A stretch of DNA of 64,000 nt from an uncultured Thiotrichales bacterium. GTDB lineage: Bacteria; Pseudomonadota; Gammaproteobacteria; UBA4575. Shown here one piece after another: positions 9,566 to 24,446 of this stretch. Below the pieces are notes generated by a model. The model was given only the letters and a program-made list of their open reading frames with translations, ran no database searches and was not told the origin of the DNA. Every line of letters begins with the position of its first letter. The first letter of the stretch is position 1. The stretch covers positions 280,705-344,704 of the forward strand of contig CAZTNC010000011.1 of assembly GCA_964614915.1 (NCBI GenBank), read 5' to 3'. Made by a program: the position numbers and the translations under genes.

Positions 9566-9619
9566 ATTCTTCTACCCGCCTACTGACAGCCCCCAGGGCC
9601 GCCTTGGCCTCATTTCAGT

Positions 9620-10978
9620 TCAGGCTTTTTTGAAGCGCCAGCCGTACATCATGCGGCCGTAAAAGTTGAACCAGTGCCTCGCCTCGGCATCCTGGAACGG
9701 GTAGTCGGCACCGAGTTGCCTTGCCGTGGCCAGACCAGTCACGAAACAGGTCTCCTGGCTGTTGATCAGCGTGTGTGCGCCGCAGTGCCAGGTTCGTCTT
9801 TTCCCCTGGATGAAGCGAAACATCAGGATGAGCAGGGCCACCTGGCGCACATCATGCACGATGTGCTGGAACCACCACCGCTTGATGATCTTGTCCTCAT
9901 CGATACGGCTGATCGGGTTGTAGGTCACCAGGCAGGGCTTGTCCGAGCGTTTTGCCCAGGGCTGTTGGTTGTGCATGATGTAGGTGATCTCGTAATTGTC
10001 CGGGCGCACCCCGTACTGCTCGATGTGGTTACTGCGGGTATCGATCTCCCTGACCTCCGTGTCCGGCAGCACCGAGGCATCCGAATGTACGATCGTATGA
10101 TTATGCAGTTCGCTCTCGTAACGGACCGAGGAGAGTAGCCAGTTCTCCAGAAGGGTCGGTTGGTCCAGCATCATCAGCGTCTGGTTCGCATTGCACGCGA
10201 ACACCACGTCATCGTAGGTCTCTCTTTTCCCATTCTCGTCCTCGACGACAACCTCGTTCTCGCGCCGGTACACCTTACGGACCGGTCGCTCCAGGTAGAT
10301 CTTGTCCCGGAACTCCTTGGACAGGCTTTCGTAGATGCGCCGCGTGCCCTGGTCCCAGGACTTCATCGGCGTGGCGGTTTCGATGTCGAAGAACTCCAGG
10401 TAGCGGGAAAACAGCGCGGCCGGCATGTCGAACACGTTGGTGGCCATCAGGAAGTTGACGAACATAGGCTTGAGGATCTTGTAGCGGAAGTCGCCCGAGA
10501 AGCGCCCGAGGTTGAGCAGTGTGCCCATGCTGACGTAGTTGAACGGGTTGAGCGCATTGAGCAGGGCGGACCTCGAGCGGTTCAGTCGGCCGAACCACTT
10601 CAGGCGCCTCAGCAGTTTCTGGAACTTCTCGATTTCCGGCAGCAGCTGCCGACGGATGTCGGAGTCGAAATCGTGCGCGTAGACCCCGCCTTTGTACTTC
10701 ACGCTGTAGCTGAAGCGGGTGTCGATCAGGTCGATGCCGTATTGCTGCATGACCAGCACGATATGGTGGTAGGCTGAGGGGATACAGGCGGTGACGGAAA
10801 TATCGAACGGGATCGAGCCGCCGTCCTCCTGCGGCATGTCCACCGTGATGGCGTTGCCGCCGATCCGCGACTGGGCCTCGTAAATTCTGAAATCGAACCG
10901 CTCGGGGTGGTGGTGCAGCGCCCAGGCCACACCCAGTCCCGAGACTCCCCCACCGATAATTGCGACTTTCCTTGGCAT
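9620..10978 (-). CDS. FAD/NAD(P)-binding amine-oxidase-like oxidoreductase (COG2907-like)
   Basis: N-terminal Rossmann MPRKVAIIGGGVSGLGVAWAL...EAQSRIGGN. C-terminal RTWHCGAHTLINSQETCFVTGLATARQLG resembles the COG2907 C-terminus (recognised from memory, no search run). Start chosen at MPRKV (452 aa); the tracked ORF extends 59 aa upstream. Confidence 0.6.
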   Translation of the reverse strand: MPRKVAIIGGGVSGLGVAWALHHHPERFDFRIYEAQSRIGGNAITVDMPQEDGGSIPFDISVTACIPSAYHHIVLVMQQYGIDLIDTRFSYSVKYKGGVYAHDFDSDIRRQLLPEIEKFQKLLRRLKWFGRLNRSRSALLNALNPFNYVSMGTLLNLGRFSGDFRYKILKPMFVNFLMATNVFDMPAALFSRYLEFFDIETATPMKSWDQGTRRIYESLSKEFRDKIYLERPVRKVYRRENEVVVEDENGKRETYDDVVFACNANQTLMMLDQPTLLENWLLSSVRYESELHNHTIVHSDASVLPDTEVREIDTRSNHIEQYGVRPDNYEITYIMHNQQPWAKRSDKPCLVTYNPISRIDEDKIIKRWWFQHIVHDVRQVALLILMFRFIQGKRRTWHCGAHTLINSQETCFVTGLATARQLGADYPFQDAEARHWFNFYGRMMYGWRFKKA

Positions 10979-11171
10979 CCTCGCGACCTGCAAATCAAAG
11001 GCTGCTACTCTACTACGCTTGGCGGTTGCCTCCAACGAAATTCCATCACAGTTCGTGATGCCCATACAGCCCGGCCTGCCACGGTTATGAATCAGTGGCT
11101 TACACGGCCACGGTATTGCCAGTGGTGGACCGGTAGCGGTACCATACACGTGCATCTTGGAACGCAGGGCT

Positions 11172-12395
11172 ATGGTTAGGCGCCCGCCTTCACCGGATTG
11201 TGCAAAGCAGGAAAATCAGGACCTTCTAGACTCACATGCAGCACACCCAATGACTTCGGGACTGAGCACTTCCAATGGTTCCTCGTCGCCGCCGGTATTC
11301 GTGACCGGCGCAGCCGGGCATGTTGGCGCCAACCTCGTGCTGCGCCTGCTTGAGGACGGGGTCCGGGTACGTGTATTGCTCCGCCAAGGGGACAACAACG
11401 AGGCCATGGAGGGGCTGGAGGTGGAACGCATCTACGGGGACATCCGTGATCTCGATGACACCCGGCGTGCGCTTGAAGGTTGCCAGGGGGTCTATCATGT
11501 CGCCGCCATGATCTCCACTATCGAGGGTAACCATGCCTACCGCCGTAACATCTACGAATGCAACGTGCTGGGCACTCGCCATGTGCTGCAGGCTGCGCGC
11601 GAAGCCGGGGCCGGACGGGTGGTGGTGACGGGTTCTTTCAGTGCCGTCGGTTACGATCTGGACAACCCGTCTTTGCCCAGCGACGAGACGATGCAGTTCT
11701 ATCCCATGGAACGCACCATGCCCTACGAGCGCAGCAAGGCGCTCGTCGAGCACGAGTGCTGGCGTGCCGCAGCTCAGGGGCAGGATGTCATGGTCGCCAC
11801 CTGCTGTGCGGTGATCGGTGGTGCCGATTATTTCCCGTCGCGCCTTGGCAGAACCCTGTGCGACTATACCAACGGCAAGCTGCGTGCCTACGTGGACGGT
11901 GGATTTGAATTTGTTGCCGCGCGGGACATCGTGGAAGGGCACCTGCTGTGCATGGCGCACGGGCGCGCCGGGGAGAAGTACATTTTCAGCAGCGAGTACA
12001 AGACGATCTCCGAGATTCTTGACCTGTACGAGGAGGTTACCGGCATCTCGCGGCCCGGCCGGCGCATCCCCACGCACATGATGCTTGCCTTCTCGGAAGT
12101 GGCGAGCTTTTATCTCAGCCGCTTTCACCCGAGCTTCCCGCAGCGCTTCACGCCAGGTGCCATCCGCCTGCTGAAAAAGTGTCGCCACGCGGACACCGGC
12201 AAAGCAAAGCGCGAGCTTGGCTATTGCCCCACCAGTATCCTTGATGCGGTACACCAGGCGTACGCGTTTCACTATCACCGCGGTGCGATCCAGAACCCGC
12301 TTGCAAATCCCCCGCGCGAGGAGGCCCTGCGAGCGGTGCAACACCCCGTCTGCGGTGAGGACGTCTCCGTCGCCTCCGAAAGGGGCCCACTGTGA
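11172..12395 (+). CDS. NAD(P)-dependent 3-beta-HSD/extended-SDR family dehydrogenase, SdmB-like (candidate sterol C-4 decarboxylating dehydrogenase)
   Basis: VFVTGAAGHVGANLVLRLL Rossmann motif and a YERSK catalytic dyad. First gene of an overlapping operon with a Rieske oxygenase, a sterol reductase, CYP51 and OSC. Start is uncertain (TTG 11157, ATG 11172 or ATG 11250). Confidence 0.6.
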   Translation: MVRRPPSPDCAKQENQDLLDSHAAHPMTSGLSTSNGSSSPPVFVTGAAGHVGANLVLRLLEDGVRVRVLLRQGDNNEAMEGLEVERIYGDIRDLDDTRRALEGCQGVYHVAAMISTIEGNHAYRRNIYECNVLGTRHVLQAAREAGAGRVVVTGSFSAVGYDLDNPSLPSDETMQFYPMERTMPYERSKALVEHECWRAAAQGQDVMVATCCAVIGGADYFPSRLGRTLCDYTNGKLRAYVDGGFEFVAARDIVEGHLLCMAHGRAGEKYIFSSEYKTISEILDLYEEVTGISRPGRRIPTHMMLAFSEVASFYLSRFHPSFPQRFTPGAIRLLKKCRHADTGKAKRELGYCPTSILDAVHQAYAFHYHRGAIQNPLANPPREEALRAVQHPVCGEDVSVASERGPL

Positions 12396-13489
12396 GCGCG
12401 AGAGTGGATCCGCCTCCGGGCTTTGAGCAGGCCACCAACCTGCGCCAGCAGGTGCGCGCTACCGGGCTCGACCCGGATTACTGGTACGCCGTTGAGGAAG
12501 TGCGAAACATCAAGCCGGGCACCGTGGTCGAGGTCATCTTCTGGAAACGCTCGATTGCCCTGTATCGCTCGAACGACGGTTCGTTTCATGCGCTCGAGAA
12601 CCGCTGTGCGCATCGCCAGATCAAGCTTTCTTTGGGCGATGTGCAGGGCTGCAAGCTGGTATGCGCCTACCATGGCTGGGAGTATGATCAGGAGGGCCGC
12701 CGGGTCGACATCGTTCATGATGCCAGCAAGGGCGGTCTTCCGAAGCCCTCCATCCGGGCTTATCCCGTGAAGGTCCGTTACGGCATGGTGTGGCTGTTTC
12801 CCGGCAATCCCGAGCGTGCCGAGGAGCACCGAATCCCGGACATTCCCGAACTGGAAGGACCGGAACGCTGGGCATGTGTGCCGCTGAGCTTCACTTGGTC
12901 CGCCCACCACTCCATGATTATCGACAACGTCAGCGACTTCACACATGCTCATCTGCACCGCCGTTACCGCCCCTTTGAAGGCGCAACGCTGACCCGTTGC
13001 GAGACCATTGGCGACAACGTGCACCTGGCCTATGACACGAAGGTGGGGCGCGGGCGCATTTCAGGGCGGTTTGTCGATCACCGGCAGCTGGACACCAATC
13101 ACATGGACCTGTGCTTTGAATACCCCTACCAGTGGTCCAACACCGATGATGCGATCAAGCACTGGTTGTTCGTCTTGCCGATCGATGAGCGCACCACTCG
13201 GGTGTTCTTCATGTTCTATTTCAAGTCTCTGAAGATTCCCCTGCTGCCGGTCCATATCCCGCGTTTTGCCATGACCACGGTGTTGAAGCTGTCGAACCGC
13301 ATGCTGATCGCACCCCTGTTGGATCAGGACCGCTATGCGGTCGAAGCCGAGCAGCTGGGCTACGAGAAACACTGGGATGCAGCGCCCATCGAGTTCAATC
13401 CGGTGGTCAAGGCCTTCCAGAACGTGACCGTGCGCAAGTGGCAGGAATACCTGGCGCGCGAGGCGGAAAACGGCCGTGCCGTTGCCTGA
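12392..13489 (+). CDS. Rieske [2Fe-2S] non-heme iron oxygenase, SdmA-like (candidate sterol C-4 methyl oxidase)
   Basis: Rieske motifs CAHRQ and CAYHGW. Mononuclear iron motif D-F-T-H-A-H-L-H. GTG start overlaps the upstream stop (GTGA). It sits in the sterol operon. Confidence 0.65.
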   Translation: MSARVDPPPGFEQATNLRQQVRATGLDPDYWYAVEEVRNIKPGTVVEVIFWKRSIALYRSNDGSFHALENRCAHRQIKLSLGDVQGCKLVCAYHGWEYDQEGRRVDIVHDASKGGLPKPSIRAYPVKVRYGMVWLFPGNPERAEEHRIPDIPELEGPERWACVPLSFTWSAHHSMIIDNVSDFTHAHLHRRYRPFEGATLTRCETIGDNVHLAYDTKVGRGRISGRFVDHRQLDTNHMDLCFEYPYQWSNTDDAIKHWLFVLPIDERTTRVFFMFYFKSLKIPLLPVHIPRFAMTTVLKLSNRMLIAPLLDQDRYAVEAEQLGYEKHWDAAPIEFNPVVKAFQNVTVRKWQEYLAREAENGRAVA

Positions 13490-14576
13490 ACTCGCGGGCG
13501 AACCACTTCTGCTGTCGGGGGCAACCCTGCTTGAGTCCGCGGCCATGCTGGCGGTGTTTATCGGGGCCCTGTTCGCAGGCTCGATCCTGTTGCCCGGACA
13601 TCGCATCACCGGACCGCAGGTGGCAGGTCAGGTACGTACATATAAGCTCAACGGCTTCCTGCTGTTCTTGCTGACTGTGATCGCGGCAGGCACCGCCCAG
13701 CTCCTGGGCTGGTTTTCGCTCGCTGCGCTCTATACTCACTTTGGTGCCCTGTTCGTAGCCGCCAACGTATTCGCATTCGCCCTGTCCGCCTGGTTGTACT
13801 GGCGAGGGGTGAAGGTCCGGGAGGAACGCCCGGGGCTGTGGCGGGGCTTTTTCTTCGGCGTCGAACTCAACCCGAGTTGGCTCGGGGTGGACCTGAAGCT
13901 GTTCAGCTACCGACCCTCCCTGATCGGACTGGCCCTGCTCAACCTGTCCTTTGCCGTCGTGCAGTACGAAACCTATGGCGAACTGACCCTGGCCATGGTG
14001 CTCTACCAGGCCTTCACGTTCCTGTATGTACTCAACTACTTCCAGTTCGAACACGGCATGGTCCACACCTGGGACATCGTCAGTGAGCGTTTCGGCTGGA
14101 TGCTGGTCTGGGGCGACTATGTGCTGGTGCCGTTTTTCTACTGCCTCGCCGGCTGGTGGCTGGTTCATGCCACGGAGACGCTGTCAATGCTGGGTGCCGC
14201 AGCCATCGTCTCGCTGTTCGCGTTCGGCTTCTGGCTGTTTCGCGGCGCCAATGAGCAAAAGCACCGCTTCAAGCGTGACCCGGACGTGAAAATATGGGGG
14301 CGACCCGCCGAGACTTTGGATGGGCGCTTGCTGGTATCCGGCTTCTGGGGGATCGGGCGACATCTTAACTATACAGGCGAGATTTGCATCTACCTCTCGT
14401 TTACCCTGACTACCGGGTTCGCATCCTGGTTGCCGTACCTGCTACCGGCCTGGCTCGCAAGCCTGCTGTGGCACCGCTCCCGACGGGATGAACGCCGCTG
14501 CCGTGCCAAGTACGGAGAACTGTGGGGACGCTACAAGAAGCGGGTGCGCTATTCCATGTTGCCGTTCGTCTATTAG
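13476..14576 (+). CDS. Sterol reductase, ERG4/ERG24 family (likely delta-14 sterol reductase)
   Basis: Polytopic membrane protein. Family signatures GVELNPS (LNPR-like), LLVSGFWGIGRHLNYTGE and C-terminal HRSRRDERRCRAKYGELWGRY. GTG start at 13476; an alternative ATG lies at 13545. Confidence 0.8.
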   Translation: MPLPELAGEPLLLSGATLLESAAMLAVFIGALFAGSILLPGHRITGPQVAGQVRTYKLNGFLLFLLTVIAAGTAQLLGWFSLAALYTHFGALFVAANVFAFALSAWLYWRGVKVREERPGLWRGFFFGVELNPSWLGVDLKLFSYRPSLIGLALLNLSFAVVQYETYGELTLAMVLYQAFTFLYVLNYFQFEHGMVHTWDIVSERFGWMLVWGDYVLVPFFYCLAGWWLVHATETLSMLGAAAIVSLFAFGFWLFRGANEQKHRFKRDPDVKIWGRPAETLDGRLLVSGFWGIGRHLNYTGEICIYLSFTLTTGFASWLPYLLPAWLASLLWHRSRRDERRCRAKYGELWGRYKKRVRYSMLPFVY

Positions 14577-14584
14577 GAGCCGAA

Positions 14585-15991
14585 ATGGTGCAGCGATCAG
14601 ACAGGGTGACTACGGTGGGTTCTGCGAACCCTTCACCGCCAGACAGGGCCGTGCCCGAGATGGCCGGCGGCTGGCCGCTGATCGGCCACCTGCCGGAGTT
14701 TCTCAAGGATCCGGTCTCAATGCTGGCGCGCGGCTGGGAGGAACAGGGTGAGCTTTTCCAGTTTCGCATCGGCCCGCGCAAATTTGTGCTCTTCTCCGGG
14801 CCCGAGGCCCACGATTTCTATTTCAGAACGCCCGAGGAGCAGCTGAATGCCAAGGCCGTCTACCAGTTCACGGTGCCCATCTTCGGGCGTGGCGTGGCGT
14901 ACGACATTTCCCCGGAATTGATGGCCGAGCAGTTGGGGTTTCTGTACCCGGCGCTTCGTGAATCCGCGATGCGCAGATTTGCCCGTATCATGTTTGCGGA
15001 GACCAGCCGCTTTGCCGATGCCCTCGGCGAATCCGGAGAAATCGATCTGCCGCACGCGATGAACGAACTCACCGTCAAGATCGCAAGTCGCTGCCTGATT
15101 GGAGAAGAAGTCAGGGCACAGGTGGACACGGGGTTTGCCGAGGCCTATCACGATCTGCAAAACGGCATCAATACCTTGGGGTTCTTCCTCCCCAGGCTGC
15201 CGACCCCGGCCCATCGCACCCGCGACCGGGCCCGGCAAAAAGTGGCCGAGATCTTCAGCCGGGTCATGACGGAACGCCGGCGCACCGGAGCGCAGCCCGA
15301 CGATTTCATGCAAACGCTCATGCACGCCCGGTACAAGGATGGCCGCGCACTGAGCGACGACGAGATTACCGGCATCCTGCTGACGGTGCTGTTTGCGGGA
15401 CAGCACACGAGTGCCGTGCTCGCGACCTGGACGTTGCTAGAGCTTTTAAGAACGCCCACCTACCTGGAGCGCATCCGGGACGAGATGCAGGAGGTCTACC
15501 GCGAGAGTGCGCAGGTGAGTCTTGCGAGTCTCAAGCAGCAGGTGGCCTTGGAGCACGCCGTGCGTGAAGGGGAGCGACTGCATCCGCCATTGATCATGCT
15601 GATCCGCAAGGTACTCAAGCCCTTGCAATACAAGGGCTACAGCGTGCCGGAAGGCACCCTGGCTGTGGTGTCACCGGCGGTCTCTCATCGCTTGCCGCAC
15701 GTCTTTGCCGACCCGGAACGTTTTGCTCCAGAGCGTTTTGACCCGCCAGCCAGTGAGGACAAGCAGCACCACTTCGCCCTGATCGGTTTTGGCGGCGGCA
15801 AACACCGGTGCATGGGCAAGCATTTTGCGGTCATGCAACTGAAAGCGATCTGGACCGTGCTGCTCGATCGCTTCGACTTTTATCTCGACTCTGAATTTCC
15901 CGCCCCGAATTACGGCAGCTGGGTGACCGGTCCGGTGGAGCCCTGCCGGCTGCGCTACCGGCGACGCCCAAGCACGGGGCTGCTCCAGTGA
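14585..15991 (+). CDS. cyp51: Sterol 14-alpha demethylase cytochrome P450 (CYP51)
   Basis: Heme-thiolate FGGGKHRCMG. CYP51-specific I-helix AGQHTS. B' helix YQFTVPIFGRGVAYD. AGGAG ribosome-binding site 6 nt upstream of ATG 14585. No C-terminal ferredoxin domain. Confidence 0.85.
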   Translation: MVQRSDRVTTVGSANPSPPDRAVPEMAGGWPLIGHLPEFLKDPVSMLARGWEEQGELFQFRIGPRKFVLFSGPEAHDFYFRTPEEQLNAKAVYQFTVPIFGRGVAYDISPELMAEQLGFLYPALRESAMRRFARIMFAETSRFADALGESGEIDLPHAMNELTVKIASRCLIGEEVRAQVDTGFAEAYHDLQNGINTLGFFLPRLPTPAHRTRDRARQKVAEIFSRVMTERRRTGAQPDDFMQTLMHARYKDGRALSDDEITGILLTVLFAGQHTSAVLATWTLLELLRTPTYLERIRDEMQEVYRESAQVSLASLKQQVALEHAVREGERLHPPLIMLIRKVLKPLQYKGYSVPEGTLAVVSPAVSHRLPHVFADPERFAPERFDPPASEDKQHHFALIGFGGGKHRCMGKHFAVMQLKAIWTVLLDRFDFYLDSEFPAPNYGSWVTGPVEPCRLRYRRRPSTGLLQ

Positions 15992-17340
15992 ACGGTGCCT
16001 CGGCCCGGCGTTACGATGTAGCCATCGTCGGTGCGGGTCCGGTCGGCAGCCTGTGCGCACTGGCCCATGCACGAAAGGGCGCTCGGGTGATCCTGCTCGA
16101 AGCCAATCCCAAGGCTTCCCTGCGTCTAGCCGGCGAATGGCTGCATCCTCCCGCCGTGCGCATCTTGCGCGATCTTGAGGTTGATCTGGGCTTGCCGCTC
16201 AGCGATCCCAGGGGCAAGGGTTTTGCCGTGTTCCCGGAAGACGGTACGGAGCCGATCGTCTTTCCCTATCCGCAAGGCGCCCGGGGGCTGACCTGCGAGC
16301 ATGCCTCACTGGTCTCGAACCTGCGCGAAGCGGTCGGCTGTCACCCCGAGATCGAGTTCCTTGTTCATGCCCGCGTGCGCGAGGTCGAGGACGGCCGCCT
16401 CACGTTCAGCTACAACGGCACGGACGAAACGGTGATGGCGCCGCGCATCGTCGGTGCTGACGGCCAGGCATCGATCGTGCGTCAATCGCTGGGACTGTCG
16501 AAAAACCCGGTGATCTGCTCCCAGACGGTGGGTGTGGTTCTGAGCGGGGTGACGTTGCCGCTGGAAGGTTACGGGCATGTGTTGCTCGGTGGTCCGGGCC
16601 CCGTACTCATCTACCGTCTCGACGAGCAGCATGTGCGGTTGATCGTCGATGTCCCGCTGGAGCGCACCACGCCCCGGGACCGCATCGGGTTCCTGCTGGA
16701 TTCGTATACCGACCTGCTGCCGGGACCCTTTCGCACGGCATTTGTCGATGCATTGCGTGCCGGCCAATTCCATGTTGCCGCCAACAAGCTGAGACCACGG
16801 CTCACCTACGGGAATGCACAGCGTGTTCTGATCGGCGATGCGGCAGGACACTACCACCCAATGACGGCTATGGGAATGACTTTTGGTTTCGGTGATGCGG
16901 TGGCGCTCGCCGAGAGCGATGACTTTCGCGACTTTACCCACCAGCGCATCCGCGCTACCCGGGGTCCGGCGTTTCTCGCCATGGGACTCTATGAGGTGTT
17001 TGCCGATCACCGTGCAGAGGCAGTCGCCTTCCGACACACGATTTACCGAAGTGCCCGCACCAATACGGCGTTCAGGGACCAGACCGTGCGATTACTCGCT
17101 TGTGAAGACACTTCATCAATCCGCATGGGGATTGCCTTTGTCACGACCGTGGCGCGTGCCATCGTCGAGCAAATCCCGCGATCCTTCAACCACCTCGCAT
17201 GGCGACGAGCACGCGATGTGCTTCGAGCGATTACGATCCGGATCAGCTGGTTTTTGCGAAGCATACTGCAACTCTCCAGGGCGAGAAGCGGCAAAGGGGA
17301 ACTGGACTCCGAATCGTGGAACACGCTGGCTGGCGTGCTT
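15988..17340 (+). other. Squalene epoxidase domain of the fusion protein (approx. aa 1-450)
   Basis: Rossmann FAD motif at aa 10-25. GD-AAGHYHPMT motif at aa 283-300. Confidence 0.7.
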
Positions 17341-19428
17341 CAGATCTCCATGCCTGCCAAAGCCCGAGACCCTCAGCCCAGTCGCCCGAAGGAAGTGCCC
17401 TCCCTCGATGCCACGGCTGCACTGCAGCATGCAGTTACGCGCTTGCTGGAGCTGCAGGGCAAGGAGGGTGGCTGGGAAGGCGAGATGGTCTGGTGTCCCA
17501 TGCTGACGGCACAGTACGTATTGTTGCATTACATCATCGGCAGACCCTTGGAACCTACCCGGCGCAGGCTCGTGCTGCGCTCGTTCGAACATACCCGTCT
17601 TGAAGGGGGCACATGGGGGATGCACGAGCACTCCCGGCCCCACCTGTTCGTCACCACCCTGGTCTACGTAGCGGCGAGACTGCTCGGCATCGAACGCGAG
17701 GATCCGTTGCTCGTGCCAGCGAGACAATTCCTGCAGGCCGAGGGGGTGCTCGCCATTCCGAGCTGGGGGAAGTTCTGGCTGGCCCTTCTCAATCTATACG
17801 ACTGGCGCGGTGTCAATGCCGTGCTGCCGGAGTTGTGGAGCCTGCCGCGCTGGATTGCGCTGCATCCCTCAAACTGGTACTGCCACACCCGGCTGATCTA
17901 CATGGCCATGTCGGTGATGTATTCGCATCGGTTCCAGGCCCCGATAACTCCCCTGATCACGTCCTTGCGTGAGGAGTTGTACCCGCAGGGGTTTGACTCT
18001 GTCAATTTCTACCAGGGCCGCAACCGCCTGCGAGACGCCGACCTTTTCTCACGGCCTAGCATATGGCTTCGGATCGGCTATCGTCTTGCGCAGGTATTCG
18101 AGCGCTACCACGGGCAACGCTTTCGCAATCGGTGTGTGGAAGCGATCCTGCATCAGATTCGGTGGGAGTTGCAGACCACCAGCCATACGAGTATTTCTCC
18201 GGTCAGCGGTATCCTGAACATGCTTGCCCTGTGGCTGCGCGATCCCGACGACCCGGATCTGCACCAGGCGCTCGACCAGCTGGAAGGTTGGATCTGGGAA
18301 GACGAGGCGATGGGGGCACGTGTCACAGGTGCAAGAAGCGCCTCGTGGGATACCGGGTTTGCATTGCAGGCGCTGGCCTTGATGAGTGAAGTTGAAGGGG
18401 TAGGGGATGCCCGCATGGCGGGTGCCGAGTTTCTGTACCGACAGCAGATCACCACCAGCTTCGAAGGCTATCGCGAGGCCTACCGAAACGACCCCAAGGG
18501 CGGCTGGTGTTTTGCTGGCGGATGGCATGGCTGGCCGGTATCCGACTGTACGGCCGAGGCTGTGCTTGGACTGATCGCCACCCATCGCGAGACGACAGAC
18601 CAAACCGTGCTTCGCGATGCGATTCGGTTCATGTTGCGCAGTCAAAACCGTGACGGTGGCTTTGGCAGCTACGAATCCCAACGTTCCGTTCTCGGGCTCG
18701 AGTGGCTGAATCCTGCCGAGATGTTCGGTGAATCGATGACCGAGCATTCCTACATTGAATGCACCGCATCGTGTCTTGCGGCGTTCGCCGCCTGCCGGGA
18801 GCACTTCCCGAAACTCGCTGATCGGCAATTGATGGAGGCGATCTTGCGGGCGGATAACTGGATTCGCTGGTCCCAGGCCAGTGACGGGTCCTGGCGTGGC
18901 GTGTGGGGTGTTCAGTTCATTTATGGCACGCTGTTCGGGATCCGGGGCCTGTTGGCCACCGGTGCTGGTACCGGTGATCCGGCATTGCGCCAGGCTTGCC
19001 AGTGGTTGCTGGAGCGCCAGCGCGATGACGGCGGGTGGGGTGAACACCACAGCGGCTGTCTGAGTGGCCAATACATCGCGCATGAACAAAGTCAGGTCAT
19101 CCAGACCGCGTGGGCGCTGATTGCGCTCCTTGAGGCGGGGGATTCGAGCTGGAACGCGATTTCCAAGGGTGCTAGGTTTTTGCTCGATGCCCAGCAAGAA
19201 GACGGGTCTTGGCCCAGGCAAGACATGGCCGGGGTCTTTTTCCGCACGGCCCTGCTGGATTATGTTCTTTATCGGCAGTATTTCCCGATGCATGCGCTCG
19301 GACTCTACGAGCAGCGGCGCAGAGCCCGCCAGGATCTGACGAATCCCGTCATTCACAACGTCGCTGCAAGACCGTCTGAACCTGGAGATGCTTCAAAGTC
19401 GGCGGAGCGTTTGCGCTCCTCAGCCTAG
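15988..19428 (+). CDS. Fused squalene monooxygenase (squalene epoxidase) - oxidosqualene cyclase, 1146 aa
   Basis: N-terminal 450 aa carry FAD-binding YDVAIVGAGPVGS and the epoxidase motif IGDAAGHYHPMTAMGMTFGFGD. The C-terminal 690 aa align with lanosterol/cycloartenol synthases (AIPSWGKFWLALLNLYDWRG, catalytic VSDCTAEA, several QW motifs such as LLERQRDDGGWGE). It is one uninterrupted frame. The GTG start overlaps the cyp51 stop. Confidence 0.85.
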   Translation: MNGASARRYDVAIVGAGPVGSLCALAHARKGARVILLEANPKASLRLAGEWLHPPAVRILRDLEVDLGLPLSDPRGKGFAVFPEDGTEPIVFPYPQGARGLTCEHASLVSNLREAVGCHPEIEFLVHARVREVEDGRLTFSYNGTDETVMAPRIVGADGQASIVRQSLGLSKNPVICSQTVGVVLSGVTLPLEGYGHVLLGGPGPVLIYRLDEQHVRLIVDVPLERTTPRDRIGFLLDSYTDLLPGPFRTAFVDALRAGQFHVAANKLRPRLTYGNAQRVLIGDAAGHYHPMTAMGMTFGFGDAVALAESDDFRDFTHQRIRATRGPAFLAMGLYEVFADHRAEAVAFRHTIYRSARTNTAFRDQTVRLLACEDTSSIRMGIAFVTTVARAIVEQIPRSFNHLAWRRARDVLRAITIRISWFLRSILQLSRARSGKGELDSESWNTLAGVLQISMPAKARDPQPSRPKEVPSLDATAALQHAVTRLLELQGKEGGWEGEMVWCPMLTAQYVLLHYIIGRPLEPTRRRLVLRSFEHTRLEGGTWGMHEHSRPHLFVTTLVYVAARLLGIEREDPLLVPARQFLQAEGVLAIPSWGKFWLALLNLYDWRGVNAVLPELWSLPRWIALHPSNWYCHTRLIYMAMSVMYSHRFQAPITPLITSLREELYPQGFDSVNFYQGRNRLRDADLFSRPSIWLRIGYRLAQVFERYHGQRFRNRCVEAILHQIRWELQTTSHTSISPVSGILNMLALWLRDPDDPDLHQALDQLEGWIWEDEAMGARVTGARSASWDTGFALQALALMSEVEGVGDARMAGAEFLYRQQITTSFEGYREAYRNDPKGGWCFAGGWHGWPVSDCTAEAVLGLIATHRETTDQTVLRDAIRFMLRSQNRDGGFGSYESQRSVLGLEWLNPAEMFGESMTEHSYIECTASCLAAFAACREHFPKLADRQLMEAILRADNWIRWSQASDGSWRGVWGVQFIYGTLFGIRGLLATGAGTGDPALRQACQWLLERQRDDGGWGEHHSGCLSGQYIAHEQSQVIQTAWALIALLEAGDSSWNAISKGARFLLDAQQEDGSWPRQDMAGVFFRTALLDYVLYRQYFPMHALGLYEQRRRARQDLTNPVIHNVAARPSEPGDASKSAERLRSSA
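17350..19428 (+). other. Oxidosqualene cyclase domain of the fusion protein (approx. aa 455-1146)
   Basis: DCTAE catalytic aspartate motif at aa 853-857 (nt 18544-18558). QW repeats. The region aligns with human LSS from about residue 60 onward. Confidence 0.75.
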
Positions 19429-19468
19429 TCCCGAATAAGGAAGTGCGCGGGCACAGCGCCCGGCACGT

Positions 19469-20503
19469 TCAGTCTCTCGAAGGCAGGGGTTTTCGGGCCA
19501 GGAAGTAATACATCGGGGTAAAGATGCCGGTCTCACCCCCCTCGACCAGCGCATCCGCTCCCTCGTTCAAGATCGTACTGACCGCCCGGGTGCCTTCCGG
19601 GACCAGCTTCAGGGGCTCCAGCACCCTCAATACGATGTTCGTCAGGGCACGACCCATCGGCGTGCGAGGGATACTCGAAAGCGTCAGGTCGCGGCCCTGT
19701 AGAGCGCGGTACCAGGGAGTTTCCGGGTCCGATTCAAGGGCGAGGTCACGGGCTTCCAGAAGTTCGAATCCGGCTTCACGAAAGGCCGCACACACTTCGG
19801 TGGTGCGCGCGATATCCGGCAAGGCGTCTCCGACCTCGATATCTTTCTTGATTCTCAGGTGCTCTGCATTCTGCGGATCGAAATCATCGGTGAGGCACCA
19901 CTCGTAGCCGGCAAAGCATGCCCCCGGGCGCAGGATGCGAAAGACCTCCCGGAACGCCTCGGTCTTGTTGGGCGCGTGAGGCATGGACTCGATGGCGAAG
20001 GCGCCATCATAGCTGTCGTCCTCTTCGGGGATTTGCATGTAGTTGCCATGAATAAAACGGCACTGCGACTGGATATCCTGGGTATGCACTTTCGCGCGCT
20101 CAATCTGGTAGGCGTTATTGTTGATCCCCACAAAGCTAGCCCCGGAATAACGGGCCAGGGTGTGCATCGGGCCGCCCACGCCGCAGCCCACATCGAGCAC
20201 CTGCATCAACGGTTTCAGGTCCAGTTGGTCCGCCAGAAAATGCTCATGTCTGAGCAGCGACGCCTTGAAGCTTTCCCCCTTGCGTCGCGGAGCGAAATGA
20301 AAGGATCGCCCCCAACCGAACTCGTAAAAGTCCGTCACCAGGTCGTAGTAGTGGTTGACGAGCGACTGGTAGTGCTCTTTTCTACGCTCCGGGGAGTCGG
20401 TTTCGTGGAGTCCGGCATATTGATCGACTACCGACTTCACGTGCTCCGGGGCAAGATCCGCGAGTGAGCGAGAACTTGATCTTTTGACGGGTTCGCGGGT
20501 CAT
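19469..20503 (-). CDS. Sterol 24-C-methyltransferase (ERG6/SMT family)
   Basis: Diagnostic SMT region I YEFGWGRSFHF. SAM motif LDVGCGVGGP. Region II IESMPHAP. C-terminal sterol-MT-like domain. 344 aa. Convergent with the sterol operon. Confidence 0.8.
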   Translation of the reverse strand: MTREPVKRSSSRSLADLAPEHVKSVVDQYAGLHETDSPERRKEHYQSLVNHYYDLVTDFYEFGWGRSFHFAPRRKGESFKASLLRHEHFLADQLDLKPLMQVLDVGCGVGGPMHTLARYSGASFVGINNNAYQIERAKVHTQDIQSQCRFIHGNYMQIPEEDDSYDGAFAIESMPHAPNKTEAFREVFRILRPGACFAGYEWCLTDDFDPQNAEHLRIKKDIEVGDALPDIARTTEVCAAFREAGFELLEARDLALESDPETPWYRALQGRDLTLSSIPRTPMGRALTNIVLRVLEPLKLVPEGTRAVSTILNEGADALVEGGETGIFTPMYYFLARKPLPSRD

Positions 20504-20667: not shown

Positions 20668-22488
20668 TTATTCGATTTCCAGAAAGCTGCGTAGCTGTTC
20701 GGACCGACTGGGATGGCGAAGCTTGCGAAGGGCCTTGGCCTCGATTTGGCGGATGCGCTCACGCGTCACATCGAACTGCTTGCCCACTTCCTCCAGAGTG
20801 TGATCGGTGTTCATGTCGATCCCGAAACGCATGCGCAGCACCTTGGCTTCCCGTGGGGTGAGCGAAGCCAGTATTTCACGCGTGGCTTCACCGAGGCCCT
20901 CGGAGGAGGCGGAATCCACCGGAGACTCGATGATGACGTCCTCAATGAAGTCCCCCAGGTGCGAGTCTTCGTCGTCCCCGATCGGAGTTTCCATCGAGAT
21001 CGGCTCTTTGGCGATCTTCAGTACCTTGCGCACTTTTTCCTCGGGCATCTCCATGCGTTCGGCCAATTCTTCCGGGGTCGGTTCGCGCCCCTTTTCCTGC
21101 AGCATCTGCCGCGAGATCCGGTTCAGCTTGTTGATGGTCTCGATCATGTGTACGGGGATTCGTATCGTGCGTGCCTGGTCCGCAATCGAGCGGGTAATGG
21201 CCTGTCGAATCCACCAGGTGGCGTAGGTCGAAAACTTGTAGCCGCGGCGGTACTCGAATTTGTCCACCGCTTTCATCAGGCCGATGTTGCCTTCCTGGAT
21301 CAGGTCCAGGAACTGCAATCCACGATTGGTGTACTTCTTAGCGATAGAAATCACCAGTCGCAGGTTGGCTTCCACCATTTCTTTCTTGGCCCGGCTGGCT
21401 TTGGCCTCGCCGATCGACATGCGTCGATTGATGTCACGGATCTCACCGATAGTCAGGCCGGTTTCCTGCTCGATCAGAAACAGCTTATCCTGTTCCTTGG
21501 CAATCTCCGGTTTCAGGGCAAGCAGGCCTTTCGCATACTTGGCCCTGGATCGAGGCAGGGCGTCCAGCCAGTCGGTGCAGGATTCGTTGCCAACAAAGAC
21601 CTTGATGAAGCGGTCCCGCGGCATCTTGGCATCCTGGATACAAAGCTGGCGAATACGACCTTCATGGATGCGGATTCTGCCGATCATTTTTTTGAAGTCC
21701 CCGGTCAGGATTTCCACCATCTTGGGCGTGAGCTTGACCATGGTGAACTCGTTGGCAAGGTCCTCCCCGGCCTTGAGCCGTTTTTTAGCATCGCTGTTGG
21801 CAGACAGGAACTTCTTGTACAACCGCTGCAGTTTCCGGAAATAGGCTTGGACTTCCTTGGGATCAGGACCGGTGTCCTGCTCTTTTTCATCGACCTCATC
21901 ATCGTCGCCCACCGCGGCATTCTTGCTTTCCTGAGTGATTTGCGCCGCTGGCGGAGGGATGGCATCCGTGTCTTCGTCGAGATCCACGAACCCGATGATC
22001 AGGTCCGTCAGGCGCAACTCCTCGGATTTGACCTTGTCATAGAACGCCAGCAGCTTCTCAATGGTGGATGGATAGTGTCCGATCGCAAACAGGACCTGGC
22101 GCAGTCCCTCTTCGATGCGCTTTGCAATCTTGATTTCCCCCTCGCGGGTCAGCAGGTTCACAATCCCCATCTCGCGCATGTACATGCGTACCGGGTCTGT
22201 GGTACGGCCGAACTCGCTGTCTACAGTAGCCAGGGCTGCGGCGGCTTCCTCGACATCATCATCTGTGGCGGCGCTGTCGGTCAGCACCAGGCTGTCGGTG
22301 TCCGGGGGTTGCTCATGGACATTGATGCCCATGTCATTGATCATGCCAACAATATCTTCGATCTGCTCGGGATCCACGATACCGCTTGGCAGGTGATCGT
22401 TGACTTCCGCATAGGTCAAGTAACCCTGTTCCTTGCCTTTTGCGATAAGTTGCTTGATGCTGCTGGATTGCTGTTGATTTTCGTCCAA
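20668..22488 (-). CDS. rpoD: RNA polymerase sigma-70 factor RpoD
   Basis: [17 protein letters not shown] region 1.1 and conserved regions 2-4 (regions 2.4 and 4.2 present). Start assigned to TTG at 22488, which gives a 17-aa lead before GKEQG like E. coli; the tracked ORF begins at GTG 22536. Confidence 0.93.
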
Positions 22489-22730
22489 ATGTATACCTGC
22501 CACCCGGATTCGGGCACTCCATGAACCAAACACCACAATATATCAGGATCTGTGGGGTATGGATAGCACCCTGATGGAAATCAAGGACTTAACTTGCCAT
22601 CCAGTCCTTCTGCGGCACTCTGAAACACGAAATCGTTTGCGTGTGCGGGTTGTTTGCGAGGGTTCGGGCACAGACGCTTTGCAGTGGTATCAGTACTCAA
22701 GGCCTGCAACGGTGAACCGCATCGTTTTCC

Positions 22731-24446
22731 TTAGGACACCTTGTGGTGAAGCAGGTTCCGAAGCTGCTGTTTCTCCTCTTCGCTCAGCCCGTCCGTTTGT
22801 TCCTTGTCGATCAGTGCCTGCACCCGGGCTTGGTCGGTCTTGCGGCAGACCCATTTCATGGCATCTTCGAAGGCCTGGTCAGGGTGTTTCAGTTGTGGCG
22901 GCTCCCAGGTCATCAGCTTTTGCAGCTGCTGGGCCTCTTCCTGACCGCGAAAGCGCTCGATCAATGCTGCATGGCTCAGTTCGGGTTCCCGTTGCCAGAT
23001 CTGCAGGATTCTTGCAAGAAGTGTCACTCCCGGGATCGGCGATTCATGCAGGGAGTCCGAGTCTGTGACCGTCTTGGCCAGGTCGGGCTGGTGCAACAGG
23101 GCAGAGATCGCAAGCCGCACCGGAGTGGCGCGGGTCAGGGCATCGGCCACCTTGTACCGATACGTGTTCCCGGAGACTGGTTTGGCAACAGTGTAGTGCA
23201 CCGGTGCGCCGACCATTTTTTCCAGTTCCTCGAAAACGAGTTTCTTGAACACGCCGTCCGGAAGCTTGGACAGCAACGGCTTTGCCCGCTGGGCAAGACG
23301 GGCCTTGCCTGCCGGGGTGCGAATGTCCGAATCGCGACTCAGCTTGTCCAGGATGAACTCTGACAGCGGGATGCTGTCTTCCACGTACTGCAGGAAGATC
23401 TCCTTTCCACGTGCGCGAATCAGGCTGTCCGGGTCTTCCCCTTGCGGCAGGAACAGGAATTTCGCTTCCAGCCCGTCGCGAAACACCGGTACGGTATGCT
23501 CGGCGGCGCGCCAGGCCGCCTCGCGGCCGGCGCGATCACCGTCAAAGCAGAAAATGATTTCCTGGGTGTAGCGAAACAGTTGCTGGACATGTTGTGAGGT
23601 CGTGGCCGTGCCAAGCGTGGCTACGGTATTCTCGATGCCGTGCTGTGCCAGGGCGAGTACGTCCATGTAGCCTTCCACTACTACCAGGTTGCGTGGGGCG
23701 CCTTTAGCCTTGCGCGCCTCGTACATGCCGTACAGTACATCGCTCTTGTGAAATACCGGGGTTTCAGGAGAGTTCATGTACTTGGGGATGGCATCGTCCA
23801 GTACACGCCCACCGAAGCCAATCACCCGTCCGCGCCGGTCACGGATCGCGAACATGATGCGGTTTCGAAAGCGATCGTACAGCTTGCCATGGACATTTTT
23901 CTTGACCAGTCCGCTGAGCAAAAGCTCCGCTTCACTCGCTTCATCCTTGAGCACATTCAGCAGGCTGTCAAAACGGTCCGGCGCGAATCCGAGTCCGAAA
24001 CGTGCTGCTACCTCGCCGCTCAGTCCGCGGTCTTTCAGGTACCCGGTGGCTACGGGCTCTGCGCGCAGGCAACTGCGAAAGTGAGCATGGGCCCGCTCCA
24101 GCAAGGCCAGCAGCTTGTGATGGCTCTGCGGCGGTGGGGCACCGGCATCGCGGGGCACTTCCAGGCCCGCACGCTGCGCCAGTACCTCGACGGCTTCCAG
24201 GAATTCAAGGCGTTCGTAATCCATCAGGAAGCCAAGCGCGGTACCGTGTGCGCCGCAGCCGAAACAGTGGTAGAACTGCTTCTCCGGGCTGACCGTGAAC
24301 GAAGGGGTTTTCTCGTTGTGGAAGGGACAGCAGGCCATGTACTCCCGGCCCTTCTTTTTCAGGGACACCTGGCCACTGATGAGCTCGACGATATCCGTGC
24401 GCGTAATCAGTTCATCGATGAAGGATTGCGGGATTCGGGTCGACAC
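22731..24446 (-). CDS. dnaG: DNA primase
   Basis: Zinc-ribbon CCPFHNEKTPSF...CFGCGAHG. TOPRIM domain (VVVEGYMDV). 571 aa. Confidence 0.95.
   Translation of the reverse strand: MSTRIPQSFIDELITRTDIVELISGQVSLKKKGREYMACCPFHNEKTPSFTVSPEKQFYHCFGCGAHGTALGFLMDYERLEFLEAVEVLAQRAGLEVPRDAGAPPPQSHHKLLALLERAHAHFRSCLRAEPVATGYLKDRGLSGEVAARFGLGFAPDRFDSLLNVLKDEASEAELLLSGLVKKNVHGKLYDRFRNRIMFAIRDRRGRVIGFGGRVLDDAIPKYMNSPETPVFHKSDVLYGMYEARKAKGAPRNLVVVEGYMDVLALAQHGIENTVATLGTATTSQHVQQLFRYTQEIIFCFDGDRAGREAAWRAAEHTVPVFRDGLEAKFLFLPQGEDPDSLIRARGKEIFLQYVEDSIPLSEFILDKLSRDSDIRTPAGKARLAQRAKPLLSKLPDGVFKKLVFEELEKMVGAPVHYTVAKPVSGNTYRYKVADALTRATPVRLAISALLHQPDLAKTVTDSDSLHESPIPGVTLLARILQIWQREPELSHAALIERFRGQEEAQQLQKLMTWEPPQLKHPDQAFEDAMKWVCRKTDQARVQALIDKEQTDGLSEEEKQQLRNLLHHKVS

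What the first reader, a model, noticed from the sequence alone, without database searches (positions are those of the whole stretch)
15988..19428. Single-ORF fusion of squalene epoxidase and oxidosqualene cyclase
One 1146-aa frame contains a complete FAD squalene monooxygenase domain (GxGxxG, GD-AAGHYHPMT) joined to a cyclase whose own N-terminal 60-70 residues are missing. The bacterial examples I know encode these as separate adjacent genes. A covalent fusion would channel the oxidosqualene epoxide to the cyclase. The GTG start overlaps the cyp51 stop (GTGA), so it is translationally coupled.
Basis: seen in the sequence. Interest (0 to 1): 0.85.

Follow-up and report, generated by a model that had tools for sequence, protein, structure and literature searches.

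The report
Fused squalene epoxidase–lanosterol cyclase gene
This is a genuine single gene joining the two enzymes that turn squalene into the first sterol ring system, but the same fusion is already present in hundreds of marine-sponge symbiont genomes and has been noted in print, so it is real and conserved rather than new.

Summary
The 1146-aa ORF (15988-19428, +) exists as described and is not an assembly artefact. At least 120 protein clusters (67-92% identity) cover its full length. 79 of 80 related genomic loci from many bacterial groups read through the junction in one frame. The junction has no indels and is under purifying selection. One claim fails: the cyclase is not N-terminally truncated. 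Standalone bacterial OSCs (about 665 aa) and the bacterial OSC profile start at query residue about 465, and the 77-residue N-terminal extension belongs to eukaryote-type OSCs. The "linker" is the normal C-terminal tail of a bacterial squalene epoxidase, so two complete enzymes are joined end to end. An unfused relative (L081) has SE, a 5-nt spacer and OSC in the same context. The gene sits in the sdmB-sdmA-erg24-cyp51-SE/OSC plus SMT cassette already described in sponge-symbiont MAGs (Kelly 2022). "Fused SMO/OSC homologs" are mentioned by Brown et al. 2023. I found no biochemical study of the fusion. Catalytic motifs of both halves are invariant, and V851 (human V453) predicts lanosterol. Substrate channelling is plausible but untested. 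Verdict: real, architecture already known, modest interest.

The parts
15988..19428 (+). Whole SE-OSC fusion ORF (1146 aa plus stop)
   Evidence: Full-length homologues.
15988..15991 (+). GTGA: the GTG start of the fusion overlaps the TGA stop of cyp51
   Evidence: ATGA/GTGA overlap conserved in 56 of 70 loci.
15988..17382 (+). Complete bacterial-type squalene epoxidase half (aa 1-465). Contains GxGxxG at 15-20, GADG at 156-159 and GDAAGHYHPMT at 283-293.
   Evidence: Pfam SE/FAD_binding_3. Human SQLE 6C6N aligns to 8-304. Standalone SE81/P0142 (477 aa) aligns 6-465 without gaps. Motif residues invariant in 54 sequences.
17116..17343 (+). SE C-terminal tail: three amphipathic, Arg-rich helices (aa 377-394, 402-433, 441-452), likely membrane-interfacial
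   Evidence: AF2 secondary structure. Hydrophobic moments, and no KD-19 window above 1.52. Homologous to the tail of standalone SE.
17344..17421 (+). Junction coil (aa 453-478, ISMPAKARDPQPSRPKEVPSLDATAALQ). The fusion point maps to about aa 465.
   Evidence: pLDDT below 50 for 438-469. No indels in 79 homologues. omega 0.1-0.5 for codons 430-490. SE81 ends and OSC81 begins here.
17383..19347 (+). Complete bacterial-type oxidosqualene cyclase half (aa 466-1120)
   Evidence: TIGR03463 positions 2-633 of 634 and TIGR01787 above cutoff. Human OSC 1W6K residues 78-722 align. OSC81 residues 3-658 align at 73% identity.
18526..18558 (+). OSC active-site stretch HGWPVSDCTAE (aa 847-857). Catalytic Asp is D853. 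V851 corresponds to human V453 (lanosterol-type).
   Evidence: Alignment to 1W6K. H847, G848, W849, P850, V851, D853, C854, T855 and E857 invariant. V453 rule from Wei et al. 2016.
19348..19425 (+). Variable C-terminal tail (aa 1121-1146), poorly conserved
   Evidence: identity 0.08-0.14 and gaps 0.31-0.70
14522..15991 (+). Cytochrome P450, CYP51-like sterol 14-demethylase candidate (exact start uncertain)
   Evidence: Pfam p450. Syntenic in most loci. The homologous gene is listed as the ERG11 hit in Brown 2023 Supp Data 1.
13476..14576 (+). ERG4/ERG24-family sterol C-14 reductase candidate
   Evidence: Pfam PF01222, 256.6 bits. Synteny.
12392..13489 (+). SdmA-like Rieske oxygenase (C-4 demethylation)
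   Evidence: NF052579, 411 bits, below the curated cutoff of 600. Pfam Rieske and VanA_C. Synteny.
11157..12395 (+). SdmB-like SDR (C-4 demethylation). The true start is probably downstream of the first TTG.
   Evidence: NF052578, 299 bits, below the curated cutoff of 600, with the match starting at aa 48. Synteny.
19469..20503 (-). Sterol C-24 methyltransferase (SMT), convergent with the fusion gene
   Evidence: Pfam Sterol_MT_C, 84.9 bits. Present next to the fusion in most loci.
9620..11155 (-). Unassigned flavin amine-oxidase-like protein that travels with the cassette in some genomes
   Evidence: Pfam Amino_oxidase. No NCBIfam assignment. Homologue within the held flanks of 18 of 80 loci at 70-94% identity.

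Best explanation
The ORF is a genuine, conserved bifunctional gene. A complete bacterial squalene epoxidase (aa 1 to about 465, including its amphipathic C-terminal tail) is joined head to tail to a complete bacterial oxidosqualene cyclase (aa about 466-1120).

Origin (inferred): loss of the SE stop codon and a tiny spacer between two adjacent genes. The unfused relative L081 still shows SE, a 5-nt spacer and OSC.

Context (shown): it is the last + strand gene of a horizontally mobile sterol-synthesis cassette, sdmB-sdmA-erg24-cyp51-SE/OSC, with a convergent sterol methyltransferase. This cassette is typical of marine-sponge symbionts.

Mechanism (inferred from family knowledge): the SE half uses FAD, O2 and an unidentified electron donor to make 2,3-oxidosqualene at the membrane surface. 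The OSC half protonates the epoxide with D853 of the DCTAE motif and cyclises it, most likely to lanosterol (V851 = human V453). Downstream enzymes then demethylate at C-14 and C-4 and methylate at C-24.

Effect of the fusion: it guarantees 1:1 stoichiometry, co-translation and co-localisation of two monotopic membrane enzymes. Proximity hand-over of the epoxide is plausible but unproven.
For: Shown:
- ORF and domains.
- At least 120 clusters at 90% identity cover the full length.
- 323 matching stretches in species-representative genomes. All of the best 80 contain both halves on one strand.
- 79 of 80 have an uninterrupted frame across the junction.
- No indels across aa 380-480 in 79 homologues.
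- dN/dS is 0.1-0.5 across the junction against about 0.1 in the domain cores.
- SE81 6-465 = query 6-465, and OSC81 3-658 = query 465-1120.
- Standalone SEs and OSCs in the 1.84-billion-protein library end and begin at the same point.
- FAD motifs, DCTAE, W787 and H633 are invariant, with mapping to 1W6K and 6C6N.
- V453 correlates with lanosterol in tested bacteria (Wei 2016).
- The same cassette and the fused gene are reported in the literature.

Inferred: catalytic activity of both halves, the product, the membrane association (amphipathic helices, no TM segment) and any kinetic benefit.
Against: - No enzymatic or expression data for any member were found.
- The TIGR03463 score (741) is below its curated cutoff (851).
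- Residues aligned with human OSC Y98 and SQLE Y195 are Met500 and Phe79, so details of catalysis may differ.
- AF2 gave only pLDDT 67 and pTM 0.50, so there is no evidence for a defined domain interface.
- No reductase or ferredoxin partner was recognised among the ORFs annotated here, and no squalene synthase was found by tblastn of the whole window.
- Standalone forms persist inside the same clade, so fusion is not obligatory for function.
Confidence: 0.85

Rival explanations
1. Assembly or sequencing artefact: an indel near 17.3-17.45 kb merged two adjacent genes that are separate in the real genome.
For: Separate adjacent SE and OSC genes with only a 5-nt spacer do exist in a relative (L081), so a single indel could in principle merge them.
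Against: - 79 of 80 independent loci, from short- and long-read MAGs of many bacterial groups, keep the same frame with no indel at the junction.
- At least 120 full-length protein clusters exist.
- The junction codons are under purifying selection.
- The fusion is also seen in published data.
Confidence: 0.01
2. The fusion is real but kinetically neutral: a frozen accident (stop-codon loss) that persists because it does no harm and travels with the mobile cassette. There is no substrate channelling, and the only benefit is fixed stoichiometry.
For: - The join is seamless between two otherwise unchanged enzymes, with no added linker or interface element.
- Standalone and fused forms are interleaved in the OSC tree.
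- AF2 finds no confident inter-domain packing.
- Both substrates are membrane-dissolved lipids, so diffusion within the leaflet may suffice.
Against: - The junction length is strictly invariant across 79 homologues.
- Fused forms persist over deep divergence, down to 39-48% identity (P0121-P0126, P0132, P0136).
- Other fusions of consecutive early-pathway enzymes recur (SE-SQS, SQS-OSC), which hints at a selective benefit.
Confidence: 0.35
3. One half is catalytically dead and serves only as a membrane anchor or scaffold. For example, the SE domain may be inactive, with oxidosqualene supplied by another enzyme or by the sponge host.
For: - Human SQLE Y195 aligns with an invariant Phe79.
- No electron donor is encoded nearby.
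- The SE half evolves faster than the OSC half (56-92% against 67-92% identity).
Against: - All FAD-binding motifs and the SE signature are invariant.
- SE core omega is about 0.1.
- The SE Pfam score is well above its cutoff.
- Standalone bacterial SE relatives share the same sequence features.
Confidence: 0.06
4. The cyclase half makes a product other than lanosterol (cycloartenol, parkeol or another triterpenol).
For: - Two of the three classical specificity positions are not lanosterol-type. Human C449 aligns with H847, which is cycloartenol-like, and T381 aligns with A782.
- Human Y98 aligns with Met500.
Against: - V851 at the V453 position is invariant. In tested bacteria, V453 versus I453 correlated completely with lanosterol versus cycloartenol (Wei 2016).
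- The downstream genes (CYP51, ERG24, SdmAB, SMT) expect a protosterol.
Confidence: 0.15

Closest known systems
Fused SMO/OSC homologues in sponge-symbiont sterol gene clusters (Brown et al. 2023, Nat Commun, PMC10070321; 'clusters of steroid genes' of Kelly et al. 2022, Microbiome, PMC9531527)
   Same: - Single gene hit by both ERG1 and ERG7 queries.
- Same neighbours: ERG11/CYP51, ERG24, sdmA, sdmB, and SMT on the opposite strand.
- The window's protein is 63-92% identical to such proteins from sponge-associated MAGs across many bacterial groups.
   Different: Nothing architectural. This is another member, about 90% nucleotide identity to its nearest database relatives. The literature mentions the fusion only in Methods and supplementary data (Brown) or annotates it simply as LSS/ERG7 (Kelly). 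Its biochemistry has not been studied.
Separate, adjacent bacterial SE and OSC genes (for example locus L081 here; from my own knowledge also Methylococcus capsulatus and Gemmata obscuriglobus)
   Same: Same two enzymes, same order SE then OSC, same cassette context. SE81 is 54% and OSC81 is 73% identical to the two halves.
   Different: There is a stop codon and a 5-nt spacer between them. SE81 carries 12 extra C-terminal residues and OSC81 two extra N-terminal residues.
Eukaryotic lanosterol synthase (human OSC, PDB 1W6K) and squalene epoxidase (human SQLE, PDB 6C6N)
   Same: Homologous folds and motifs. OSC residues 78-722 align with E = 1e-128, with DCTAE, W387, H232 and V453 equivalents conserved. 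The SQLE FAD domain aligns with E = 1e-25.
   Different: - Separate polypeptides in eukaryotes.
- Human OSC has a 77-residue N-terminal extension that is absent here, as it is in standalone bacterial OSCs.
- Y98 corresponds to Met500, T381 to Ala782, C449 to His847, and SQLE Y195 to Phe79.
Other natural fusions in sterol pathways: CYP51-ferredoxin of Methylococcus capsulatus (PMC7947880); SE-squalene synthase and squalene synthase-OSC fusions seen here
   Same: Covalent joining of consecutive or partner enzymes of early sterol synthesis in bacteria or uncultured organisms.
   Different: Different partners. None of them joins SE to OSC.

Membership tests
Squalene epoxidase / squalene monooxygenase (Pfam PF08491 SE; flavoprotein monooxygenase) | Match to the SE family profile above the curated cutoff | tested here: met
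   PF08491 scores 77.8 bits against a cutoff of 20.1, over residues 151-370. Human SQLE 6C6N has E = 2.9e-25.
Squalene epoxidase / squalene monooxygenase (Pfam PF08491 SE; flavoprotein monooxygenase) | FAD-binding motifs: GxGxxG, DG and GD | tested here: met
   G15, G17, G20, G156-A157-D158-G159, G283-D284-A285 and H290-P291 are invariant in 54 family members.
Squalene epoxidase / squalene monooxygenase (Pfam PF08491 SE; flavoprotein monooxygenase) | Converts squalene to 2,3-oxidosqualene using O2 and an electron donor | not testable with these tools
   No biochemical data. No reductase partner was identified in the window.
2,3-Oxidosqualene cyclase (NCBIfam TIGR03463 osq_cycl; TIGR01787 squalene/oxidosqualene cyclases) | Score above the curated cutoff of the OSC-specific model TIGR03463 | tested here: not met
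   741.2 bits against a cutoff of 851, although the profile is covered end to end (2-633 of 634).
2,3-Oxidosqualene cyclase (NCBIfam TIGR03463 osq_cycl; TIGR01787 squalene/oxidosqualene cyclases) | Score above the cutoff of the general triterpene cyclase model, and both Pfam cyclase domains present | tested here: met
   TIGR01787 scores 510.4 against 322.7. PF13249 scores 176 bits and PF13243 scores 180 bits.
2,3-Oxidosqualene cyclase (NCBIfam TIGR03463 osq_cycl; TIGR01787 squalene/oxidosqualene cyclases) | OSC-type catalytic motif DCTAE (epoxide-protonating Asp) rather than the DxDD of squalene-hopene cyclases | tested here: met
   VSDCTAEA at 851-858 aligns with human D455-C456. D853, C854, T855 and E857 are invariant.
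2,3-Oxidosqualene cyclase (NCBIfam TIGR03463 osq_cycl; TIGR01787 squalene/oxidosqualene cyclases) | Full-length cyclase, not N-terminally truncated | tested here: met
   Standalone bacterial OSCs align from their residue 3-4 (OSC81, P0130). Only the eukaryote-type extension (human residues 1-77) is absent.
Lanosterol synthase subtype | Val at the position of human V453 (Ile in cycloartenol synthases) | tested here: met
   V851 is invariant. Rule from Wei et al. 2016. The other two classical positions (A782, H847) are not lanosterol-type, so the product remains a prediction.
Sponge-symbiont fused SMO/OSC within the sterol cassette (Brown 2023; Kelly 2022 CSG) | SE and OSC domains in one uninterrupted ORF | tested here: met
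   The same holds in 79 of 80 related loci.
Sponge-symbiont fused SMO/OSC within the sterol cassette (Brown 2023; Kelly 2022 CSG) | Cassette synteny: ERG24-CYP51-(SE/)OSC, preceded by the sdmB-like ('DFR') and sdmA-like genes, with SMT or FDFT1 on the opposite strand | tested here: met
   Window genes 11157-20503. The same order is seen in about 65 of 80 loci. It matches the descriptions.
Sponge-symbiont fused SMO/OSC within the sterol cassette (Brown 2023; Kelly 2022 CSG) | Origin in a marine-sponge-associated bacterium | tested here: inconclusive
   The window's source is not given. Its nearest relatives (about 90% nt identity) are Gammaproteobacteria MAGs (L001, L002, L006, L053) whose titles do not name a host. 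Other family members carry explicit sponge names: Poriferihabitaceae, Spongia_Bin9, and TsSOB 'lac_sponge'. A PKS that I recall, unverified, as typical of sponge symbionts is also in the window.

The most novel reading that the evidence does not exclude
The fixed-length, seamless junction positions the SE active site and the OSC substrate entrance side by side on the membrane surface. In that arrangement 2,3-oxidosqualene would pass directly from one to the other, raising flux and suppressing over-epoxidation to 2,3;22,23-dioxidosqualene. This would make the family the first natural bifunctional squalene-to-lanosterol synthase with true substrate channelling. It would also be a compact, transfer-ready module that helps explain why the cassette spreads across so many bacterial groups in sponges.
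Probability: 0.25. Interest if true: 0.55.

Novelty: already known. Interest (0 to 1): 0.3.

Why it matters
- **Biomarker debate:** the cassette carrying this gene is central to whether sponge sterols and their fossil steranes (24-isopropylcholestane) could derive from bacterial symbionts (Brown 2023; Kelly 2022). The fused gene supplies the two oxygen-dependent entry steps of that pathway in one polypeptide.
- **Enzymology and engineering:** a naturally fused, apparently soluble or monotopic bacterial squalene-to-lanosterol enzyme would be a convenient part for heterologous sterol or triterpenoid production. It would also be a natural test case for proximity channelling between two membrane-surface enzymes.
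- **Limits:** the gene itself is neither unique nor newly discovered. What remains open is its biochemistry: activity, electron donor, product, and the benefit of fusion.

Tried and rejected
- **Artefact hypothesis:** rejected on 79 of 80 in-frame loci, the absence of junction indels and purifying selection.
- **Truncated cyclase:** rejected by profile coverage and by standalone bacterial OSCs.
- **AF2 of the full-length protein with a 54-sequence alignment:** mean pLDDT 67 and pTM 0.50. This is too weak to infer a domain interface, so no fold search was run.
- **Literature searches for a dedicated study of a natural SE-OSC fusion:** nothing beyond the Methods line and Supplementary Data 1 of Brown 2023. 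Hoshino & Gaucher 2021 and Wei 2016 do not mention it (one search failed on a syntax error).
- **Squalene synthase in the window:** none found by tblastn.
- **Electron-transfer partners:** none recognised among the flanking ORFs scanned with Pfam.
- **NJ tree of OSC domains to count fusion events:** fused and standalone forms interleave. The tree has no support values, so the number and direction of fusion or fission events is unresolved. No SE-half tree was made.
- **Transmembrane helices:** none by Kyte-Doolittle 19-residue windows (maximum 1.52).
- **Cluster-member look-up of distant fused and standalone representatives:** only one informative organism name, a Myxococcota MAG for the standalone OSC P0129.

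Full report
**Observation**

The window contains one ORF at 15988..19428 (+), 1146 aa, with a GTG start.
- Pfam places FAD_binding_3 (9-308) and the squalene-epoxidase family domain SE (151-370) in the N-terminal part.
- It places the two triterpene-cyclase domains SQHop_cyclase_N (480-773) and SQHop_cyclase_C (784-1108) in the C-terminal part.
- NCBIfam matches the bacterial oxidosqualene-cyclase model TIGR03463 over profile positions 2-633 of 634. The score is 741 bits, below the curated cutoff of 851.
- The general cyclase model TIGR01787 scores above its cutoff (510 against 323).
- The GTG start overlaps the TGA stop of the upstream P450 gene as GTGA at 15988-15991.

**Is it an artefact?**

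No.
- A search of 5.8 billion proteins returned at least 120 clusters (at 90% identity) of 1113-1174 aa. They cover 96-100% of the query at 67-92% identity, and many lie on megabase-scale contigs.
- A scan of species-representative genomes found 323 matching stretches. In all of the best 80, both halves lie on one strand.
- In 79 of those 80 loci a single uninterrupted frame runs across the junction. The one exception, L075, has a stop inside the cyclase rather than at the junction.
- An alignment of window plus 80 loci shows no indels between residues 380 and 480. Sequence identity there is lower (34-49%) than in the domain cores.
- Nei-Gojobori estimates on twelve pairs give omega of about 0.1-0.5 for codons 430-490, against about 0.1 for the SE core and the OSC half. 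The junction is therefore translated in this frame and constrained.

**What exactly was joined**

The exhaustive search of 1.84 billion representatives shows where standalone relatives begin and end.
- Standalone bacterial OSCs (P0130, 665 aa; P0135, 644 aa) begin to align at query residues 466-473.
- Standalone bacterial SEs (P0142, 477 aa) align through query residue 466.

The genomic context of P0142 (locus L081) is a related cassette with sdmB-like, sdmA-like and P450 genes. In it SE (477 aa, 8001-9434) is followed after a 5-nt spacer by a separate OSC (666 aa, 9440-11440).
- SE81 residues 6-465 align without gaps to query 6-465 at 54% identity.
- OSC81 residues 3-658 align to query 465-1120 at 73% identity.

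So the fusion is a seamless end-to-end join of two complete enzymes.
- Only the last 12 residues of the SE, its stop codon, the spacer and the first two OSC codons are missing.
- The apparent "linker" is the ordinary C-terminal tail of a bacterial SE.
- The claim that the cyclase lacks 60-70 N-terminal residues holds only relative to eukaryotic OSCs, since human 1W6K aligns from its residue 78. It is not a truncation relative to bacterial OSCs.

**Structure hints**

AF2 with a 54-sequence alignment gave only mean pLDDT 67 and pTM 0.50, so nothing can be said about a domain interface.
- The model predicts three helices in the SE tail (377-394, 402-433, 441-452). A low-confidence coil (about 453-475, Pro-rich) follows, before the first OSC helix.
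- The helices are amphipathic and Arg-rich.
- No 19-residue window reaches a transmembrane-like hydropathy; the maximum is 1.52.
- This fits a peripheral or monotopic membrane association, as is established for eukaryotic SE and OSC. That step is an inference.

**Catalytic competence (inferred)**

Several functional residues are invariant in 54 family members, mapped through the alignments to 1W6K and 6C6N:
- the FAD-binding residues G15, G17, G20, D158-G159 and G283-D284;
- the SE signature H290-P291;
- the OSC motif residues D853, C854, T855 and E857;
- W787 (human W387) and H633 (human H232).

At the product-determining position the family has an invariant Val (V851 = human V453). Wei et al. 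2016 report that V453 against I453 correlated completely with lanosterol against cycloartenol in the bacteria they tested.

The other two classical positions are not lanosterol-type: A782 aligns with T381 and H847 with C449. Human Y98 aligns with Met500, and SQLE Y195 aligns with an invariant Phe79. The product is therefore a prediction, not a result.

**Genomic context**

The gene is the last + strand member of a cassette:
- sdmB-like, 11157-12395;
- sdmA-like, 12392-13489;
- ERG24-like, 13476-14576;
- CYP51-like P450, 14522-15991;
- the SE/OSC fusion;
- a convergent sterol C-24 methyltransferase, 19469-20503 (-).

Further context:
- The same order is found in about 65 of the 80 related loci, at 60-85% amino-acid identity.
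- The record titles place these loci in Gamma- and Alphaproteobacteria, Nitrospirales, Binatia, Thermodesulfobacteriota, Acidimicrobiales, Vicinamibacterales, Bryobacterales and Longimicrobiales.
- For comparison, the window's RpoD finds only about 38% identity in the Acidimicrobiia-group loci (L026, L031, L048).
- The ATGA/GTGA overlap with cyp51 is conserved in 56 of 70 loci.
- In the window the cassette lies next to rpoD-dnaG.
- The nearest loci (L001, L006, L002) are about 90% identical at the nucleotide level.
- No squalene synthase was found by tblastn of the window. No electron-transfer partner was recognised among the flanking ORFs scanned with Pfam.

**Comparison with what is known**

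- Kelly et al. 2022 (PMC9531527) described "clusters of steroid genes" (ERG24-CYP51-LSS/ERG7). These are flanked by a "DFR" and a hypothetical gene on one side, with SMT or FDFT1 on the opposite strand.
- They found the clusters in 115 of 537 Ircinia sponge MAGs from 10 phyla, with purifying selection and horizontal transfer. That is the cassette seen here, with the fused gene annotated simply as LSS.
- Brown et al. [quoted passage not shown]
- Their Supplementary Data 1 lists one Aplysina aerophoba metagenome gene as the hit for both ERG1 and ERG7, next to ERG11, ERG24, sdmA, sdmB and SMT genes. They place the sponge-metagenome OSCs in the bacterial OSC Group 1.
- I found no paper that characterises the fusion biochemically or discusses it further.

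**Wider distribution**

- Beyond the tight sponge-symbiont family, which collapses into one 50%-identity cluster (P0043), eight more fused representatives at 39-48% overall identity exist: P0121-P0126, P0132 and P0136.
- One of them, P0122, sits in a differently ordered cluster: sdmB-cyp51-sdmA-SE/OSC-EBP-ERG24 (L082).
- In a rough NJ tree of OSC domains, all fused forms fall in one broad bacterial clade with a few standalone OSCs interleaved. The standalone OSC81 nests inside the sponge family.
- That implies more than one fusion or fission event. The tree has no support values, so the direction is unresolved.

**Mechanism and rivals**

- The best-supported reading is a real bifunctional squalene-to-lanosterol enzyme whose fusion fixes stoichiometry and co-localisation.
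The constant junction length, the persistence of the fusion over deep divergence and the recurrence of other early-pathway fusions all hint at a benefit.
- It is untested, however, and a neutral frozen accident is a serious rival.
- An inactive half or a non-lanosterol product are minor rivals.

**Verdict**

The architecture is already in public databases in hundreds of genomes and has been noted in the literature. It is a further instance of a known but uncharacterised fused enzyme within a published cassette. Interest is modest and lies in the unexplored enzymology.

Noticed in passing
window 27648-37289 (+): A 3213-aa type I polyketide synthase with domain order KS-AT-DH-MT-ER-KR-ACP-KS. 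From memory it resembles the small 'Sup' PKS reported as widespread in sponge symbionts and linked to methyl-branched fatty acids. I did not verify this.
   Followed up: partly
window 9620-11155 (-): A 511-aa flavin amine-oxidase-like protein, divergent from sdmB, with no specific family assignment. A 70-94% identical homologue lies within the held flanks of the sterol cassette in 18 of 80 loci, at varying positions, in Gammaproteobacteria, Binatia, Thermodesulfobacteriota and Nitrospirales/Nitrospira. It may be an unrecognised sterol-modifying accessory enzyme.
   Followed up: partly
L081 8001-11440 (ENA ERZ24894576, contig ctg49556l): An unfused version inside the same family: SE (477 aa), a 5-nt spacer, then OSC (666 aa). 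This cassette lacks erg24 between sdmA and cyp51. OSC81 is 73% identical to the window's OSC half and nests within the fused clade in an NJ tree. It is either a secondary fission or a retained ancestral state.
   Followed up: partly
proteins P0200, P0203, P0206, P0207, P0245 and P0199 (representative library): Other natural fusions of early sterol-pathway enzymes. One type has an SE domain, about 400 unassigned residues and a squalene/phytoene synthase domain (1080-1190 aa). P0199 is a squalene synthase-OSC fusion (1022 aa). Organisms are unknown.
   Followed up: partly
L082 3879-12110 (Logan SRR14366766): A distant fused SE/OSC (P0122, 48% identity) in a differently ordered sterol cluster that also encodes an EBP-family (C-8 isomerase-like) protein: sdmB-cyp51-sdmA-SE/OSC-EBP-ERG24.
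   Followed up: no
window 20668-24446 (-): The sterol cassette abuts the housekeeping rpoD-dnaG pair. rpoD follows the SMT in the same way in relatives L001 and L053. This suggests a stable chromosomal insertion in this gammaproteobacterial lineage, whose closest chromosomes are only 1.85-1.97 Mb.
   Followed up: no
L011, L013, L018, L071 (regions downstream or upstream of the fusion): Several loci carry two or three tandem SMT paralogues next to the cassette, some at only 41-52% identity to the window's SMT. This is relevant to multiple side-chain methylations.
   Followed up: no
window 15988-19428, residues M500 and F79: Residues aligned with human OSC Y98 and human SQLE Y195 are an invariant Met and an invariant Phe in this family. 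From memory, Y98 is implicated in enforcing the B-ring boat and Y195 in the SQLE active site and inhibitor binding. The functional meaning here is unknown.
   Followed up: no
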